From: Lysobacterales bacterium
GTDB taxonomy: Bacteria; Pseudomonadota; Gammaproteobacteria; Xanthomonadales; SZUA-36
Direction: 5' to 3'
Assembly (NCBI GenBank): GCA_041571375.1
Contig: JBFFUJ010000001.1
Coordinates: 1 to 41,145 of the forward strand
DNA: 41,145 nucleotides
Shown: positions 36,601 to 40,011 of the stretch, piece by piece
Layout of the letters: each line of letters opens with the position of its first letter
Position numbering within the stretch: position 1 is the stretch's first letter
Notes under the pieces: model-generated
Database searches by the model: none
Told to the model about the DNA's origin: nothing
Seen by the model: only the letters and a program-made list of their open reading frames with translations
Position numbers and translations under genes: made by a program

Positions 36601-39600
36601 TGGTGACCTCAGGCATCAGGTTTTTCGCCCCGGCAATGCCTCGGTAGCTCGTGCTGCAGAAGCGCGCCACCAGAAAGCGCAGCAGATACACTGCCTCGTG
36701 TCGGCTGCCGCAGGCATTCAGACGCCTCAGCACCACGGCCAGGTCGCGCAGCCGCGAGACCTGGATGGCGGGCATCTCGCCCACGTCGAGGTGGTAGATT
36801 TCCTGCTCGAGGTCGATGGCCTCGCCGAGTTTCCCGACCAACCCCGCAATCATCGGGTCGGTAATGATCGTGCCCTGCGGCAGGCGCTGCTCCGCGAGCA
36901 AACGGTCCTCCTCGGCCGCGAGGGAATGGACCGCCAGCCGCCCCTGAGCATCGAAGGGGACCAGCAGGGCATCGTCCTGGCGGAAGATCCGGTGATTGGC
37001 GATTTCGAACAACGGATACCGCTGCCCGATGCGGGCCATGGTCTCGAGGTAGCAGCGCAGCGCCGCACTGTGGGCCTGTTCCGGCGAGTCGGGGGTTGAA
37101 TAAGCAGCAATCAGGGCGCGGTTCAGGGCGGCGAGTTGGTCGCGTTCGCCCGCATCGAAAGCAGCAGGTTCGCCGGCCGCCGCGCGTTTCACCGGCGTCG
37201 GCGGCAGCGCCCCCGCCAGGTCCTTTTCCGGCCATTCATACAGGGCCGTGACTTCACGCAATGCCTCGTGCAGGGGGCGGTTCCGCGCCTCCAGCCTGGC
37301 GTTCACCTCGCGCAAGGCCTGCAGATAGTCGTCGAAGCGGCTGCCGTGGATGACCACACCGTGAAAAGCGGCCAGGCGCTCGATAATGACCAGCATCTCC
37401 TCCCGCAGAAACTCATACAGCTCCTGCCCACGGACACTGGCGACGCCCCGCGCCAGGGCCAGCGAGGTGGACAGGATCGCGTTCATGCCGACGTTCTGCT
37501 TGCGTTGCATTACCTGGACCTGCGCGTCCCGCGGCGCTTCAACGTCCAGCTTCCCCCGGCGCTCGGCCGTGGACAGCTCCAGCCCCAGCAACGCCCGGTC
37601 GATGTCCAGCAGGCTCCAGTCCGCGATATTCCGGGCCTCGAACAGGGGCGCGATGAACTCGTGCACGTGATCGACCGCGAACAGGCAACCCTTGCCGTTG
37701 TACCGTCCCGCTCGCCGCGCCAGCTCGAGCAGCACCTCGTCTGCACAATCCGCGGGAACGGCTTCCGTCCGAATGGCATAGACACCGGGTTCGACTTCTT
37801 TCAGCAGTTGGCCGTGGCGCTCGACGATTTCCGTGTACTCGGCCCCTTCGAATACCGCATCCACAACGTGGACCGCCTCGCCGGTGCCGGCAGAAGTGCC
37901 CAGCGGGGTCGCCCCATGGAAACTCATCCGGACCCCGCCATCGGCGCCGGTTCCCGGCAGCGCCAGGTCGACGTCCACGCCGACAGTTGGAATGCCGGCG
38001 TTGGTGGGCTCTTCCTGGGCCCGCACGCGGGCTACGGTCGCCCGCTCCGGCGGCACCGGCTCCCGCACGTCCCCCTCCGCAATGCGGTCCATCTGCTTGG
38101 CAATGGCCTGATACTTGATCAGCCGCTCGGTATTGGCCCCGCCTCCGGCTTTCAGGCCCAAGGCATTACCCGCCAGCGCGATGTGGGCCTCCATGTCGTC
38201 GTTCGGACTCTTCGACCGGTGCGACACGACGATTTCCAGTCCCTTGCCCAAAGCCACCAGCATGGCCAGCAGGGTCTCATAAAGCGTCCCGATCTGGTTG
38301 GCCTTGACCAGCACGGTGTTGATCAGCCCATGCTCGGCAGCCATTTCGATCGTTCGGTCATTGGTGGTCACCAGATCATCGCCGATCACCAGGATGCGGT
38401 CGCCCAGACGCTCGAGCAGCAGCCGCCAGCCTGCGTGGTCGTTTTCGGAGAATCCGTCTTCGATGGACAGGATCGGGATATCGAGGTCACGGACCGCCCG
38501 CTCGTAGACGGCCAGAACGCCGTCACGGTCCAGCACCTTCTTGGCATGATCGCGCCAGAACAGGTACATGCCGACAGCGTCCGGAACATCGAATTCCTCG
38601 CGGTAGGCGATTTCCAGTTCCGACAGGGCCGGATCGAGGGCCAGCGCTACATCGATACCGGGACGGTAACCGCATTCCTCGATAGCCCTTTTCATCAGGT
38701 CCCACAGGCGCAGTTCCGGCAGCTCGTATTCGGCCCGGTCGACGTAGGGGGCCAGGCCGCCCTCCAGGCCGATGCCCATCACACGGCAGCCCTCCGCCGA
38801 CTCGAGTATTTCCTTGAGCCGATTCTGCAGCCGCACGGTCATTTCCTGGGCCTCCTGGGAATCCTCCGCACCGAGGATCAGGAACATGGCTTCCTGCATG
38901 CTGACGTTCGACTCGGGATATTCCTTTTCTGTATGGCGGCCGCCCATGCCGCAGTTGCGGAATTGCCAGGGTGCGCGTACCACGCCAAGCCGCGGGTGGG
39001 TGGCGTCCTGCATGCTGCGCTGGCTGAGGCGGCGGCGCGCATCCGGGGCCAGCCCCAGCCAGCCCGACGACTTGGGCAGGGCCGCGGCCGTCTCGCTGGC
39101 GAGGCGTTCGCGGCGCTGGAACTCGCGGTATTTGCCGGGATCCGCAAGCAGAAAGTCGAGTCCCGTCACCAGGCCCAGGCCCAGCAGCAGTCGCCCGCCA
39201 TAGAGTGCGCCGTCGAACTCCCCGAGCAGACCGATCGCCAGCAGCACCGCGGCCAAGGGCAGCGCCACCCGCGCGACCGCCAGGCTGGCCCGTGGACCCG
39301 CGGCAGCGACCGCCAGATTGTAGGGGGCGTCAGGATAGTAATTGAGGCCCTCGCGCTTCACCCCTACGGCACGTCCAAAGGGGATGCGCAGGAACATGCC
39401 GGCCAGATACCGCGCCCGGGCGAGCCACGGCTGGGCCAACCGACGGGCGACCTCATCCTGGATGGACTCGTTGAGCGCCCGCAGGCGGGCGGCTTCGAGA
39501 ACGTGCCCCAGTTCATGCAGCGACACGGCCGAGTGGAACACCAGGTAGGTGAAGGCGGCGGAGATCAGGGTCTCCGGGCTTACAAAAATGAATCGGAGAA

Positions 39601-39763
39601 CCTCCGCCCGCGATGCTGCGTCAGCCGGGATCGCGAGCACAGAGGAGATGAAGGCGGCGTGAAAGGAAACCAGAATATGGTTGGCGATCACCCAGCCTTC
39701 CTGCAGCATAGACCGCTCAGAAGACAGCGAAGTCGCACGCTTGTCCGGGACGATTGAACCCAT
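33656..39763 (-). CDS. Giant multidomain protein: M50-like membrane domain + permuted enolase + unknown ~730-aa region + PPDK/PEPS-type ATP-grasp and phosphohistidine swivel domains
   Basis: The frame is uninterrupted from 39910 (GTG) to the TGA at 33656..33658. The ATG at 39761..39763 (GGAG 11 nt upstream) is preferred, giving 2035 aa; the ATG at 39709 is also possible. Domain motifs are listed in the sub-features below. Residue numbers used in this answer follow the ORF-track protein (residue 1 at 39910). Confidence 0.85.
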   Translation of the reverse strand: MGSIVPDKRATSLSSERSMLQEGWVIANHILVSFHAAFISSVLAIPADAASRAEVLRFIFVSPETLISAAFTYLVFHSAVSLHELGHVLEAARLRALNESIQDEVARRLAQPWLARARYLAGMFLRIPFGRAVGVKREGLNYYPDAPYNLAVAAAGPRASLAVARVALPLAAVLLAIGLLGEFDGALYGGRLLLGLGLVTGLDFLLADPGKYREFQRRERLASETAAALPKSSGWLGLAPDARRRLSQRSMQDATHPRLGVVRAPWQFRNCGMGGRHTEKEYPESNVSMQEAMFLILGAEDSQEAQEMTVRLQNRLKEILESAEGCRVMGIGLEGGLAPYVDRAEYELPELRLWDLMKRAIEECGYRPGIDVALALDPALSELEIAYREEFDVPDAVGMYLFWRDHAKKVLDRDGVLAVYERAVRDLDIPILSIEDGFSENDHAGWRLLLERLGDRILVIGDDLVTTNDRTIEMAAEHGLINTVLVKANQIGTLYETLLAMLVALGKGLEIVVSHRSKSPNDDMEAHIALAGNALGLKAGGGANTERLIKYQAIAKQMDRIAEGDVREPVPPERATVARVRAQEEPTNAGIPTVGVDVDLALPGTGADGGVRMSFHGATPLGTSAGTGEAVHVVDAVFEGAEYTEIVERHGQLLKEVEPGVYAIRTEAVPADCADEVLLELARRAGRYNGKGCLFAVDHVHEFIAPLFEARNIADWSLLDIDRALLGLELSTAERRGKLDVEAPRDAQVQVMQRKQNVGMNAILSTSLALARGVASVRGQELYEFLREEMLVIIERLAAFHGVVIHGSRFDDYLQALREVNARLEARNRPLHEALREVTALYEWPEKDLAGALPPTPVKRAAAGEPAAFDAGERDQLAALNRALIAAYSTPDSPEQAHSAALRCYLETMARIGQRYPLFEIANHRIFRQDDALLVPFDAQGRLAVHSLAAEEDRLLAEQRLPQGTIITDPMIAGLVGKLGEAIDLEQEIYHLDVGEMPAIQVSRLRDLAVVLRRLNACGSRHEAVYLLRFLVARFCSTSYRGIAGAKNLMPEVTRVRAELVEFMNGPFASRLRLPTRILVRSISGMVSRPKLIDEVWQDTIDLAEVQVRGSAIANEIRRSTHHAMGKQTLALARAYQRWLDTGQAAFPDPEREIPTAADEAARADPRAVNLVGRIVGNLEQLLGTSQVATRIAEWQEGYAAELTRCESTNTLSEELESLVVNGIRADNRWVYQHRLRSLANKARGGDWADEARQAFEAGLALLREMEPGEDGFDAVRAEDLARKTVADFVRRLRADHQDALFAELEALVACYQNGNQFRAFEQCCALRRHTENLCGRGVFASQRYLLHQLDCVLEELGYFALRHLASDYQEHGLDLAQCLRVVFLCAGNLELDGLFSRELWDLSAMLVHPARSPSELLDVLEQVQRNYHRLVHRVSEAYDVMAGHLGYSEIEMRAVLGNFQRTMHDLNSLVHFSDLARAHIAERRANLPQLGSGSMGENPWDFIHLSHRDDVVRRVEDSESVSLQARYGGKGSGLIYIAYLGVPTRDAFIIPTVLPRMNLHRREPEKLERELLRHVEILEQDIARESGSPVRLGDPSAPLLLAIRGGSVFSMPGQLSTVVFAGITDAVAEELAREDEWFAWDAYRRFLASYSAAVWHLDLEELNLVEEAKRRHGVALKIDLPGHAMREIVEASKAAIHEAGHGEELDAVLQDVELQLVRSMRAVFDSWNGPRAERYRSIKHLSDGWHTAVIVQQMAAGNRSNEEPLKPGMDETRISLTGVIPHTRMTGAGFRVFTGDVKFSACGDDLVGGLTAAKSFEPVAELHAQAPMLERKLNHISARLRRFLGSDAEIEFTVERGVLSVLQTRSAQLELQHEAQTFREPGAPAGRGIGIAGGAFRGLVAFDDEDVQLLKQEYATLPDEVDGILLVLENPIPDEIPLILSVDGLLAARGGSTSHAAVAVHGIDDRPYAAVLGVAELRVYRDEAVLVDEAGKPMHCLQRGDILSIHGQTGEVYFGFRPVFAIDPEVAGAAESSH
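33716..34108 (-). other. Domain: PEP-utilising-enzyme mobile (phosphohistidine swivel) domain
   Basis: GIGIAGGAFRGLVAF...ILLVLENPIPDEIPLILSVDGLLAARGGSTSHAAVAVHG...LSIHGQTGEVYFG. The TSH histidine codon is at 33896..33898. Confidence 0.8.
34136..35200 (-). other. Domain: PPDK/PEP-synthase N-terminal nucleotide-binding (ATP-grasp) domain
   Basis: YGGKGSGLIYIAYLGVP, PLLLAIRGGSVFSMPGQLSTVVFAGI, WDAYRRFLASY, AVFDSWNGPRAERYRSI, TAVIVQQMAAGN and AEIEFTVERGVLSVLQTRSA. These are collinear with the PPDK motifs GGKGANL, LLVSVRSGAxxSMPGMMDTxLNLG, YDSYRRF, AVFxSWxxxRAxxYR, TAVNVQxMVFGN and DIEFTIExGxLxxLQTR. Confidence 0.8.
37397..38038 (-). other. Domain: enolase N-terminal domain, located after the barrel
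   Basis: GIPTVGVDVDL, GATPLGTSAGTGEAVHVVD, YNGKGCLFAVDHVHEFIAPLF, LLDIDRALL, and NVGMNAILSTSLALARGVA...ELYEFL. These are collinear with the canonical GNPTVEVEV, PSGASTGxxEAxElrD, GKGVxxAVxNVN, iDxxm and LGANAILxVSLAxAkAaA...PLYxYl. Confidence 0.75.
38075..38977 (-). other. Domain: enolase C-terminal TIM-barrel
   Basis: SMQEAMFLI, GLEGGLAP, ALALDPALSE, LSIEDGF (38453..38467 encodes SIEDG), VIGDDLVTTN, VLVKANQIGTLYE, VVSHRSKSPND and LKAGGGANTERLIKYQ. These are collinear with the canonical enolase motifs QEFMI, DEGGFAP, ALDxAASE, SIEDG, VGDDLxVTN, KxNQIGTLTE, SHRSGETED and IKTG...R..KYNQ. Confidence 0.8.
39143..39703 (-). other. Domain: M50/site-2-protease-like polytopic membrane region
   Basis: HELGH (39503..39517) sits in a hydrophobic segment. 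It is followed by VAAAGP and a hydrophobic LLGEFDGALYGG segment, the order seen in SpoIVFB/RseP-type peptidases (HExxH ... AGP ... xDG). Confidence 0.55.
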
Positions 39764-40011
39764 CTCACCCGCGCTCCGTGAGGTTGCAGGCAGGTTACAT
39801 GCTACGCCCGGCCGGACACCATGATTTGCATCACTGCGAGGCCATCCTCCGGCTGCGGCCAGCCTGAGCGCTGCTGGTAAAAATGACCCATCCGGAGTGG
39901 TTTCCGCCACCCCGGCAGGCCTTCAGGGCACTGGCCCCCGGTTTTTTGGGTCCGTCCCATGGCATGGAATGTGCATGACTTCCTTGTCGGAATCTGCAGA
40001 GGAGGTCGAGG

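What the first reader, a model, noticed from the sequence alone, without database searches (positions are those of the whole stretch)
37397..38977. Enolase module appears circularly permuted (barrel first, N-terminal domain second) while keeping catalytic motifs
Seen: the barrel motifs (QEAMF, LEGGLAP, ALDPALSE, SIEDG, GDDLVTTN, KANQIGTL, SHRS, KAGG..R..KYQ) occupy about 38075..38977. The N-domain motifs (IPTVGVDV, PLGTSAGTGEAV, NGKGCLFAVDHV, GMNAILSTSLALA) follow at about 37397..38038. Only about 12 residues link the two parts. Established: canonical enolases have the N-terminal alpha/beta domain before the barrel. The metal-binding D/E/D triad lies in the ALD, SIEDG and GDDL motifs, the catalytic Lys in KxNQIG, and the catalytic Glu in (D)EGG; all of these positions are retained here. 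Some substrate-loop residues differ (PLGTSAG vs PSGASTG; SHRSKSPND vs SHRSGETED). Inference: a probably active, permuted enolase-like enzyme, possibly with altered substrate or loop dynamics.
Basis: partly seen in the sequence, partly recalled or inferred. Interest (0 to 1): 0.78.

Follow-up and report, generated by a model that had tools for sequence, protein, structure and literature searches.

The report
Domain-swapped enolase in giant membrane protein
The enolase here really has its two domains in reversed order with every catalytic residue kept, and it is one part of an unstudied 2,000-residue membrane protein, found in hundreds of uncultured bacteria, that also carries part of a pyruvate phosphate dikinase.

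Summary
Confirmed. The region lies in one minus-strand ORF (33656..39910, 2084 aa; the database call is 2017 aa). Profile HMMs place the enolase barrel at residues 322-612. The enolase N-domain follows at about 626-845, after a 13-residue linker. No N-domain precedes the barrel.

Re-joined in canonical order, the sequence aligns end to end with ordinary enolases. All 13 catalytic and ligand residues are present. They are invariant in 31 of 32 copies compared, down to about 50% identity. AlphaFold gives a confident model (pLDDT 83, pTM 0.85), and its barrel matches solved enolases.

The permuted enolase always follows a four-helix membrane domain resembling M50 peptidases, with an invariant HExxH. 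This membrane-plus-enolase cassette occurs in at least 373 species-level genomes; the best 80 are all MAGs from many phyla.

In this window's family the cassette is followed by three further parts:
- a 720-residue helical region with no known fold;
- a pyruvate phosphate dikinase nucleotide-binding domain;
- a phosphohistidine domain.

The dikinase's PEP/pyruvate barrel is absent. Other cassette proteins are fused to dikinase parts in other arrangements.

No paper describing this was found. It is most likely an active, membrane-tethered enolase linked to phosphoryl transfer. Activity is inferred, not shown.

The parts
33656..39910 (-). Whole ORF, 2084 aa from GTG with the stop included. Likely true start is ATG 39763 (M50) or ATG 39709 (M68, the database call of 2017 aa).
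   Evidence: ORF. (P0001 is 100% identical and 2017 aa). (gene call on the JGI contig).
39110..39709 (-). Membrane domain resembling M50 peptidases, residues 68-267, about 4 helices. HELGH at 132-136 (nt 39503..39517), AAAGPRAS at 202-209, GLDFLLADPG at 250-259.
   Evidence: Hydropathy. Weak Peptidase_M50 hit, 17.5 bits against a cut-off of 27.2. 9 of 22 members hit weakly. H132/E133/H136, G205/P206, D252 and D257 are near-invariant.
38975..39109 (-). Linker from the last membrane helix to the barrel, residues 268-312. Rich in Arg and Lys, so probably cytoplasmic.
   Evidence: two short helices, lower pLDDT. (sequence).
38075..38974 (-). Enolase TIM-barrel domain, residues 313-612. It corresponds to canonical enolase residues about 140-430. 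It carries H326, Q339, E340, E383, D426, E484, D511, K536, H564, R565, S566 and K587.
38036..38074 (-). Permutation linker, residues 613-625 (GDVREPVPPERAT). It joins the canonical C-terminus to the canonical N-terminus.
   Evidence: alignment. (coil between helix 592-611 and strand 625-634).
37376..38035 (-). Enolase N-terminal domain, residues 626-845: three strands then helices. The Ser loop TPLGTSAGTGEA is at 668-679, with Ser673 at nt 37892..37894. There are three insertions, at 656-664, 685-731 and 783-803.
35201..37375 (-). Helical region of unknown fold, residues 846-1570. It holds an invariant polar cluster at 1141-1176 (nt 36383..36490). Found only in this window's family.
   Evidence: No Pfam or PDB sequence hit. 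AlphaFold pLDDT 84, mostly helices. Best Foldseek E-value 0.09. Absent from the other cassette proteins compared.
34151..35200 (-). Pyruvate phosphate dikinase nucleotide-binding (ATP-grasp) domain, residues 1571-1920.
   Evidence: Aligns to C. symbiosum PPDK 1kbl residues 14-339 (whole-protein E 6.9e-47). PPDK_N in Pfam. TIGR01828 at 216.7 bits.
33713..34135 (-). Phosphohistidine swivel domain, residues 1926-2066. GGSTSHAAV is at 2000-2008, and the catalytic His2005 is at nt 33896..33898. The protein ends 18 residues later, so there is no PEP/pyruvate barrel.
   Evidence: Aligns to 1kbl residues 378-508. PEP-utilizers at 24.6 bits against a cut-off of 23.1. The motif is at least 90% conserved.

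Best explanation
This is a genuine enolase whose two domains were swapped in order by an ancient circular permutation cut at the inter-domain linker. The barrel comes first, then 13 residues, then the N-terminal capping domain.

The fold and the whole two-metal acid/base active site are kept. The module therefore most likely still interconverts 2-phosphoglycerate and phosphoenolpyruvate, or a very close analogue.

The module is not free-standing. It forms a fixed cassette with a preceding four-helix membrane domain that resembles M50 peptidases and keeps its zinc-type HExxH and Asp motifs. The likely topology puts that site and the enolase together at the cytoplasmic face of the membrane.

In this window's family the cassette is joined, through a new helical region, to the ATP/phosphate-handling half of a pyruvate phosphate dikinase (nucleotide-binding domain plus phosphohistidine carrier). 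The protein probably couples PEP formation or use at the membrane to a phosphohistidine relay.

What is shown: the domain order, the homology, residue conservation, the cassette, and the domain inventory.
What is inferred: enolase activity, the topology, and any coupling to the dikinase half. The partner site for the phosphohistidine is not identified.
For: Domain order and homology:
- Pfam and PDB alignments.
- End-to-end alignment of the re-joined module with 7 canonical enolases.

Active site:
- 13 of 13 catalytic and ligand residues are present.
- They are invariant in 31 of 32 cassette copies, down to about 50% identity.
- They are also invariant columns across the 84 aligned sequences (the window segment plus 83 family members).

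Structure:
- AlphaFold model with pLDDT 82.7 and pTM 0.85. Strand and helix order fits three strands plus helices for the N-domain and a barrel.
- Foldseek top hits are all enolases, E 4e-18.

Conservation pattern:
- The enolase module is the best-conserved part of the protein: 64-83% identity, against 40-75% for the middle region.

Cassette:
- Residues 69-842 align as one block in 16 distant proteins of different overall architecture.
- Membrane-domain-only gene calls are followed directly by the enolase piece.

Link to dikinase chemistry, seen in three different arrangements:
- C-terminal half here.
- Complete PPDK downstream in P0156, and PPDK_N upstream in P0159.

Dikinase half:
- It keeps the GGKG motif, the Arg, the EFT..LQTR motif and the catalytic His.

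Neighbourhood:
- No neighbouring gene is conserved, so the function is carried within the protein.
Against: - No activity data exist.
- The TIGR01060 equivalog cut-off for enolase is not reached (203 bits against 300).
- Two active-site loops differ from all canonical enolases in a family-invariant way: PLGTSAG and SHRSKSPND.
- The N-domain carries 9-, 47- and 21-residue insertions.
- I could not obtain model coordinates, so normal packing of the N-domain on the barrel rests on pTM and on conservation of the Ser loop. It does not rest on a superposition.
- The dikinase half lacks its PEP/pyruvate barrel, and the middle region is not a barrel. How the phosphohistidine would meet PEP is unexplained.
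- It is unknown whether these genomes also carry a canonical enolase.
Confidence: 0.62

Rival explanations
1. The chemistry is the same but the substrate differs. The permuted module would perform enolase-type proton abstraction and beta-elimination on a 2-phospho- (or phosphodiester-linked) carboxylate other than free 2-phosphoglycerate. That substrate might be delivered by, or tethered near, the membrane domain.
For: Family-invariant changes occur exactly in the two loops that contact the phosphate and close the site: SHRSKSPNDDMEA in place of SHRSGETED, and PLGTSAGTGEA in place of PSGASTG..EA. The N-domain carries three insertions. The module is obligatorily fused to a membrane domain. The score is below the enolase equivalog cut-off.
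Against: Every residue that binds the carboxylate, the phosphate (R565, S566, K587) and both metals is unchanged. Repeated fusion to PPDK parts points to PEP itself.
Confidence: 0.18
2. The module is a sensor rather than an enzyme. It would bind 2-PG or PEP, and the dikinase half would bind ATP, to report metabolic state. That signal would gate an intramembrane protease activity of the M50-like domain, much as CBS domains gate some site-2 proteases.
For: The HExxH and Asp motifs of the membrane domain are nearly invariant. The fusion is obligatory. Site-2 proteases with cytoplasmic nucleotide-binding regulatory domains are known (own knowledge).
Against: A binding-only module would not need the acid/base pair K536/E383 or all three metal ligands, yet all are invariant at about 50% identity. 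The M50 assignment is itself below Pfam's cut-off, and a profile search of PDB sequences found no site-2 protease.
Confidence: 0.12
3. The order is an artefact: a mis-assembly, a frameshift join, or a chance resemblance that creates an apparent reversed order.
For: None found. Some long-read assemblies split the gene into pieces.
Against: The same order occurs in more than 300 proteins and 373 genomes from independent projects. E-values reach 1e-47. The ORF is uninterrupted for 2084 codons.
Confidence: 0.01

Closest known systems
Canonical enolase (phosphopyruvate hydratase; Pfam PF03952 + PF00113; e.g. B. subtilis 4A3R, yeast enolase 1)
   Same: Both domains are homologous: 33-35% identity over the barrel. 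All catalytic and metal-binding residues are kept. The predicted barrel and the three-strand-plus-helices N-domain topology match.
   Different: The domain order is reversed, with a 13-residue join of the old termini. The N-domain has three insertions. Two active-site loops are altered. The module is never free-standing: it is fused to a membrane domain and buried in proteins of 900 to over 2,600 residues (up to 3,697 and 6,041 in single cases). It scores below the TIGR01060 cut-off.
Pyruvate phosphate dikinase (PPDK; TIGR01828; C. symbiosum 1KBL)
   Same: The C-terminal 500 residues align to the PPDK nucleotide-binding domain (14-339) and the phosphohistidine domain (378-508), with the catalytic His motif kept.
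   Different: The PEP/pyruvate-binding barrel (PF02896) is absent, because the protein ends after the swivel domain. An enolase barrel and a new helical region lie upstream instead. A distant cassette protein, P0156, does carry a complete PPDK.
ATP-grasp plus swivel-His phosphotransferases with a non-PEP third domain (e.g. rifampin phosphotransferase; own knowledge, not tested here)
   Same: The same logic: a nucleotide-binding domain and a mobile phosphohistidine domain serve a different substrate-binding domain in the same chain.
   Different: The module here is of PPDK lineage by score. The candidate acceptor domains are an enolase and an unknown helical region. No similarity to the rifampin-binding domain was seen.
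Site-2 protease / Peptidase M50 (PF02163)
   Same: HExxH lies in a membrane helix, followed by an AGP motif and a later LD..AD motif in the last helix. There are weak Pfam hits in 9 of 22 members.
   Different: The scores are below Pfam's cut-off. A profile search of PDB sequences did not find solved site-2 proteases. There is no PDZ or CBS domain. The domain is fused to an enolase.

Membership tests
Enolase (phosphopyruvate hydratase) | C-terminal TIM-barrel domain matching PF00113 above its cut-off | tested here: met
   161.1 bits against 21.5, residues 322-612. Foldseek matches to enolase structures at E 4e-18.
Enolase (phosphopyruvate hydratase) | N-terminal capping domain matching PF03952 above its cut-off | tested here: met
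   39.6 bits against 35, in two stretches. The relative P0159 scores 76.8 bits. The full domain aligns after re-joining in canonical order.
Enolase (phosphopyruvate hydratase) | Metal ligands Asp246/Glu295/Asp320 and Ser39 (yeast numbering, own knowledge) | tested here: met
   D426, E484, D511 and S673. Invariant in 31 of 32 copies.
Enolase (phosphopyruvate hydratase) | Catalytic Lys345 and Glu211, plus Glu168, His159, Gln167, His373, Arg374, Ser375 and Lys396 | tested here: met
   K536, E383, E340, H326, Q339, H564, R565, S566 and K587.
Enolase (phosphopyruvate hydratase) | Domain order: N-domain before the barrel | tested here: not met
   The barrel (313-612) precedes the N-domain (626-845). 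This is the permutation itself.
Enolase (phosphopyruvate hydratase) | NCBIfam equivalog score (TIGR01060, 300 bits) | tested here: not met
   203.4 bits. A linear model is penalised by the permutation.
Enolase (phosphopyruvate hydratase) | Catalyses 2-PG to PEP | not testable with these tools
   Needs an enzyme assay.
Pyruvate phosphate dikinase | Nucleotide-binding (ATP-grasp) domain | tested here: met
   Aligns to 1kbl 14-339 (domain i-Evalue 2.8e-36, whole-protein E 6.9e-47). PPDK_N at 47 bits against 27.
Pyruvate phosphate dikinase | Phosphohistidine swivel domain with the catalytic His | tested here: met
   GGSTSHAAV aligns to GGMTSHAAV. PF00391 at 24.6 bits against 23.1.
Pyruvate phosphate dikinase | PEP/pyruvate-binding TIM barrel (PF02896) | tested here: not met
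   No hit. The protein ends 18 residues after the swivel domain. The middle region is helical with no structural match.
Pyruvate phosphate dikinase | NCBIfam equivalog score (TIGR01828, 843 bits) | tested here: not met
   216.7 bits.
Peptidase M50 (site-2 protease) | HExxH within a membrane helix | tested here: met
   H132-E133-L-G-H136 lies in the second hydrophobic segment.
Peptidase M50 (site-2 protease) | Third zinc ligand Asp in a later membrane helix (LDG-type motif) | tested here: inconclusive
   D252 and D257 in GLDFLLADPG are near-invariant. No structure or alignment to a solved site-2 protease was obtained.
Peptidase M50 (site-2 protease) | PF02163 match above its cut-off | tested here: not met
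   17.5 bits against 27.2. 9 of 22 members hit weakly, best E 7e-5.

The most novel reading that the evidence does not exclude
The enolase barrel has taken the place of the missing PEP/pyruvate barrel of the dikinase. On this reading the membrane-domain-plus-permuted-enolase cassette and the PPDK half form one machine. The swivelling phosphohistidine would exchange phosphate directly with PEP held in, or handed over from, the enolase site. That would link 2-phosphoglycerate to ATP/PPi at the membrane without a pyruvate-kinase-type or PPDK-type barrel. The permutation and the N-domain insertions would be what opens the enolase site to the swivel domain.
Probability: 0.12. Interest if true: 0.9.

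Novelty: new variant of a known kind. Interest (0 to 1): 0.72.

Why it matters
Enolase is among the most conserved enzymes known. As far as I know its domain order is the same in every described enolase, and seven full-text searches found no report of a natural permuted one.

This case shows that the fold tolerates a swap of its two domains while keeping the entire active site. It also shows that this form has persisted across many bacterial phyla, so far seen only in uncultured lineages.

The permuted form is always welded to a zinc-motif membrane domain and is repeatedly joined to dikinase parts. That pattern points to an undescribed membrane-associated process built around PEP. Automatic pipelines currently label these proteins 'enolase', 'PEP/pyruvate-binding domain-containing protein' or 'hypothetical'. 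That could inflate or confuse glycolysis calls in metagenome-assembled genomes.

Tried and rejected
- **Second N-domain before the barrel.** Looked for and not found.
- **Middle 720 residues as a divergent PEP/pyruvate barrel or other known enzyme.** There is no Pfam or PDB sequence hit. The confident model is helical and has no Foldseek match. Rejected.
- **Conserved partner genes.** Four loci were inspected by Pfam. ORFs from all 84 loci then held (the 80 genome loci plus those four) were clustered. The best cluster is present in only 9 loci, all from one lineage. No operon partner.
- **Free-standing permuted enolase.** Hits that lack the membrane domain start at internal Met residues of the barrel or sit at contig ends. 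Membrane-domain-only calls are followed by the enolase piece. No convincing stand-alone form.
- **Profile of the membrane domain against PDB sequences.** Only chance hits.
- **Single-sequence search with the first 96 residues of the N-domain.** Only chance hits. Homology for that stretch rests on the global alignment.
- **Superposition of the N-domain on a solved enolase.** Foldseek aligns sequentially, so it covered only the barrel. Model coordinates are not exposed, so this could not be done.
- **Rfam and tRNA scans of the window.** Nothing found.
- **Literature.** Seven searches and three papers checked. None describes a permuted enolase or this architecture.
Full report
**Observation.**
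The coordinates fall inside a single minus-strand ORF, 33656..39910, of 2084 codons counted from a GTG. An identical database protein is called from M68 and is 2017 aa. M50 (ATG 39763) is another possible start.

Pfam places Enolase_C at residues 322-612 (E 4.8e-47). Enolase_N lies after it, with its best stretch at 802-835 and 39.6 bits, above the cut-off of 35. phmmer against PDB aligns residues 330-612 to B. subtilis enolase 154-415. It aligns residues 733-835 to enolase 55-134.

The reversed order is therefore real. No N-domain precedes the barrel. Only a 45-residue linker separates the barrel from the last membrane helix.

**Is it a complete enolase?**
I cut the module at the linker and re-joined it in canonical order (residues 626-850 followed by 305-625). 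It then aligns end to end with seven ordinary enolases. The only differences are three N-domain insertions, at 656-664, 685-731 and 783-803.

The residues known to build the enolase active site (yeast numbering, from my own knowledge of the enzyme) map as follows:

| Yeast enolase | This protein |
|---|---|
| His159 | H326 |
| Gln167 | Q339 |
| Glu168 | E340 |
| Glu211 | E383 |
| Asp246 | D426 |
| Glu295 | E484 |
| Asp320 | D511 |
| Lys345 | K536 |
| His373 | H564 |
| Arg374 | R565 |
| Ser375 | S566 |
| Lys396 | K587 |
| Ser39 | S673 |

All are invariant columns across the 84 aligned sequences, which are the window segment plus 83 family members. They are also invariant in 31 of 32 cassette copies, including relatives at about 50% identity. 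The one exception is the first, clearly degenerate copy in a protein that carries the cassette twice (P0170).

Two loops differ from canonical enolases in a family-invariant way: PLGTSAGTGEA and SHRSKSPNDDMEA.

**Structure.**
AlphaFold2 on residues 268-880, with an 84-sequence alignment, gives pLDDT 82.7 and pTM 0.85. The order of strands and helices fits a barrel followed by three strands and then helices.

The lowest-confidence stretches are three active-site segments: the Ser loop, the SHRS loop and the stretch just after Lys587. In solved enolases the active-site loops are mobile (own knowledge).

Foldseek against PDB returns only enolases at the top (E 4e-18). It is a sequential aligner, so it covers only the barrel, about 300 columns. 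I could not superpose the N-domain because coordinates are not exposed. Normal packing is therefore inferred from the high pTM and from the invariance of the N-domain Ser loop, which must reach the barrel's second metal site.

**Context within the protein.**
- *Residues 68-267.* About four membrane helices, with HELGH, AAAGPRAS and GLDFLLADPG motifs. There is weak similarity to Peptidase_M50, below the cut-off. A profile search of PDB sequences found nothing.
- *Residues 846-1570.* No Pfam or PDB sequence match. The confident model (pLDDT 84) is helical and has no Foldseek match. It is not a hidden TIM barrel.
- *Residues 1571-2066.* These align to the nucleotide-binding domain and the phosphohistidine domain of C. 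symbiosum pyruvate phosphate dikinase. The whole-protein E-value is 6.9e-47, and the catalytic His motif is kept.
- *C-terminus.* The protein ends 18 residues after that, so the dikinase's PEP/pyruvate barrel is missing.

**Distribution.**
A word-indexed search gave 318 homologues. Most of those listed are about 2,000-2,100 residues with the same Pfam set. They carry the names 'enolase', 'PEP/pyruvate-binding domain-containing protein' or 'hypothetical'.

An exhaustive HMMER search with the enolase module found further giant proteins at 50-58% identity, some from Omnitrophota. Reading and aligning them shows that residues 69-842 of the window protein align as one uninterrupted block. That block is the membrane domain plus the permuted enolase. 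The regions before and after it differ completely between proteins.

The smallest complete-looking members are about 870-950 residues: membrane domain, permuted enolase and a short tail (P0134, P0148, P0139).

The helical middle region is restricted to this window's family.

Dikinase parts recur in three arrangements:
- the C-terminal half here;
- a complete PPDK including PF02896 downstream in P0156;
- PPDK_N upstream in P0159.

A scan of one genome per species found 373 genomes with a relative. The best 80 are all metagenome-assembled genomes. They are labelled Lysobacterales, Planctomycetota, Acidobacteriota and Aminicenantes, Myxococcota, Gemmatimonadota, Desulfobacterota-type, Dehalococcoidia and others.

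No neighbouring gene is conserved. Short proteins with only the membrane domain are split gene calls followed by the enolase piece. Proteins with only the enolase are truncated calls.

**How it most likely works.**
*Shown:*
- a bona fide enolase with swapped domain order and a fully conserved active site;
- its fusion to a membrane domain with zinc-type motifs;
- in this family, its fusion to the ATP/Pi half of a dikinase.

*Inferred:*
- The module still performs 2-PG/PEP interconversion or very similar chemistry. Acid/base and metal residues would not stay invariant in a binding-only module.
- The Arg/Lys-rich segment after the last helix places the enolase, and the HExxH/Asp site at the helix ends, on the cytoplasmic side.
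- The repeated association with dikinase parts ties the cassette to PEP-linked phosphoryl transfer.

The unexplained step is where the phosphohistidine gives or takes its phosphate, since no PEP/pyruvate barrel is present.

*Rivals:*
- an altered substrate, supported by the loop changes;
- a metabolite sensor gating an intramembrane protease;
- as the most novel reading, the enolase barrel itself serving as the PEP site for the swivel domain.

**Novelty.**
Seven full-text searches and three papers checked gave no description of a natural permuted enolase or of this architecture. No curated NCBIfam model covers it.

The parts are known families, so I rate it a new variant of a known kind. It is a surprising one, given how invariant enolase architecture is.

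Noticed in passing
window 39110..39709 (-): The membrane domain directly upstream of the barrel has an invariant HExxH, an AGP motif and LD..ADPG motifs, and weakly resembles Peptidase_M50. It is always fused to the permuted enolase, as one cassette.
   Followed up: yes
window 36383..36490 (-), residues 1141-1176: There is an invariant polar cluster (LIDEVWQDTIDLAEV ... RGSAIANEIRRSTHHAMGK) inside the otherwise fast-evolving helical region of unknown fold. It could be a binding or catalytic site.
   Followed up: no
window 33713..35200 (-): The dikinase half is truncated. The nucleotide-binding and phosphohistidine domains are intact, including catalytic His2005, but the PEP/pyruvate barrel is absent.
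   Followed up: yes
P0170 (2099 aa): One relative carries the membrane-plus-enolase cassette twice in tandem. The first enolase copy has lost nearly all catalytic residues, while the second keeps them all.
   Followed up: partly
L003 14496..20592, L004 1..7895, L086 13434..14786: Alpha-2-macroglobulin-type genes lie next to the giant gene in three loci, two of them from one lineage. This may be lineage synteny or chance.
   Followed up: no
window 37136..39757 (+): An 873-codon ORF runs antisense to the giant gene. It is probably a shadow ORF of the kind common in 65% G+C DNA. It was not tested.
   Followed up: no
window 39707..39910 (-): The start codon is ambiguous: GTG 39910 (longest ORF), ATG 39763 (M50, which fits the length of homologues' N-termini) or ATG 39709 (M68, the database call).
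   Followed up: partly
L005-L084: All 80 best genome hits are metagenome-assembled genomes, with no cultured isolate among them. That may explain why the family is unstudied. Two are complete chromosomes (CP070750.1, OY969586.1).
   Followed up: partly
window, flanks of the gene (L001 gene table): The neighbours are unrelated in function. Upstream lie an AddAB-type helicase-nuclease pair and a thioredoxin. Downstream lie a glyoxalase-like protein, a Rieske oxygenase, a short-chain dehydrogenase, crcB, and glycogen enzymes (GH77, branching enzyme).
   Followed up: no
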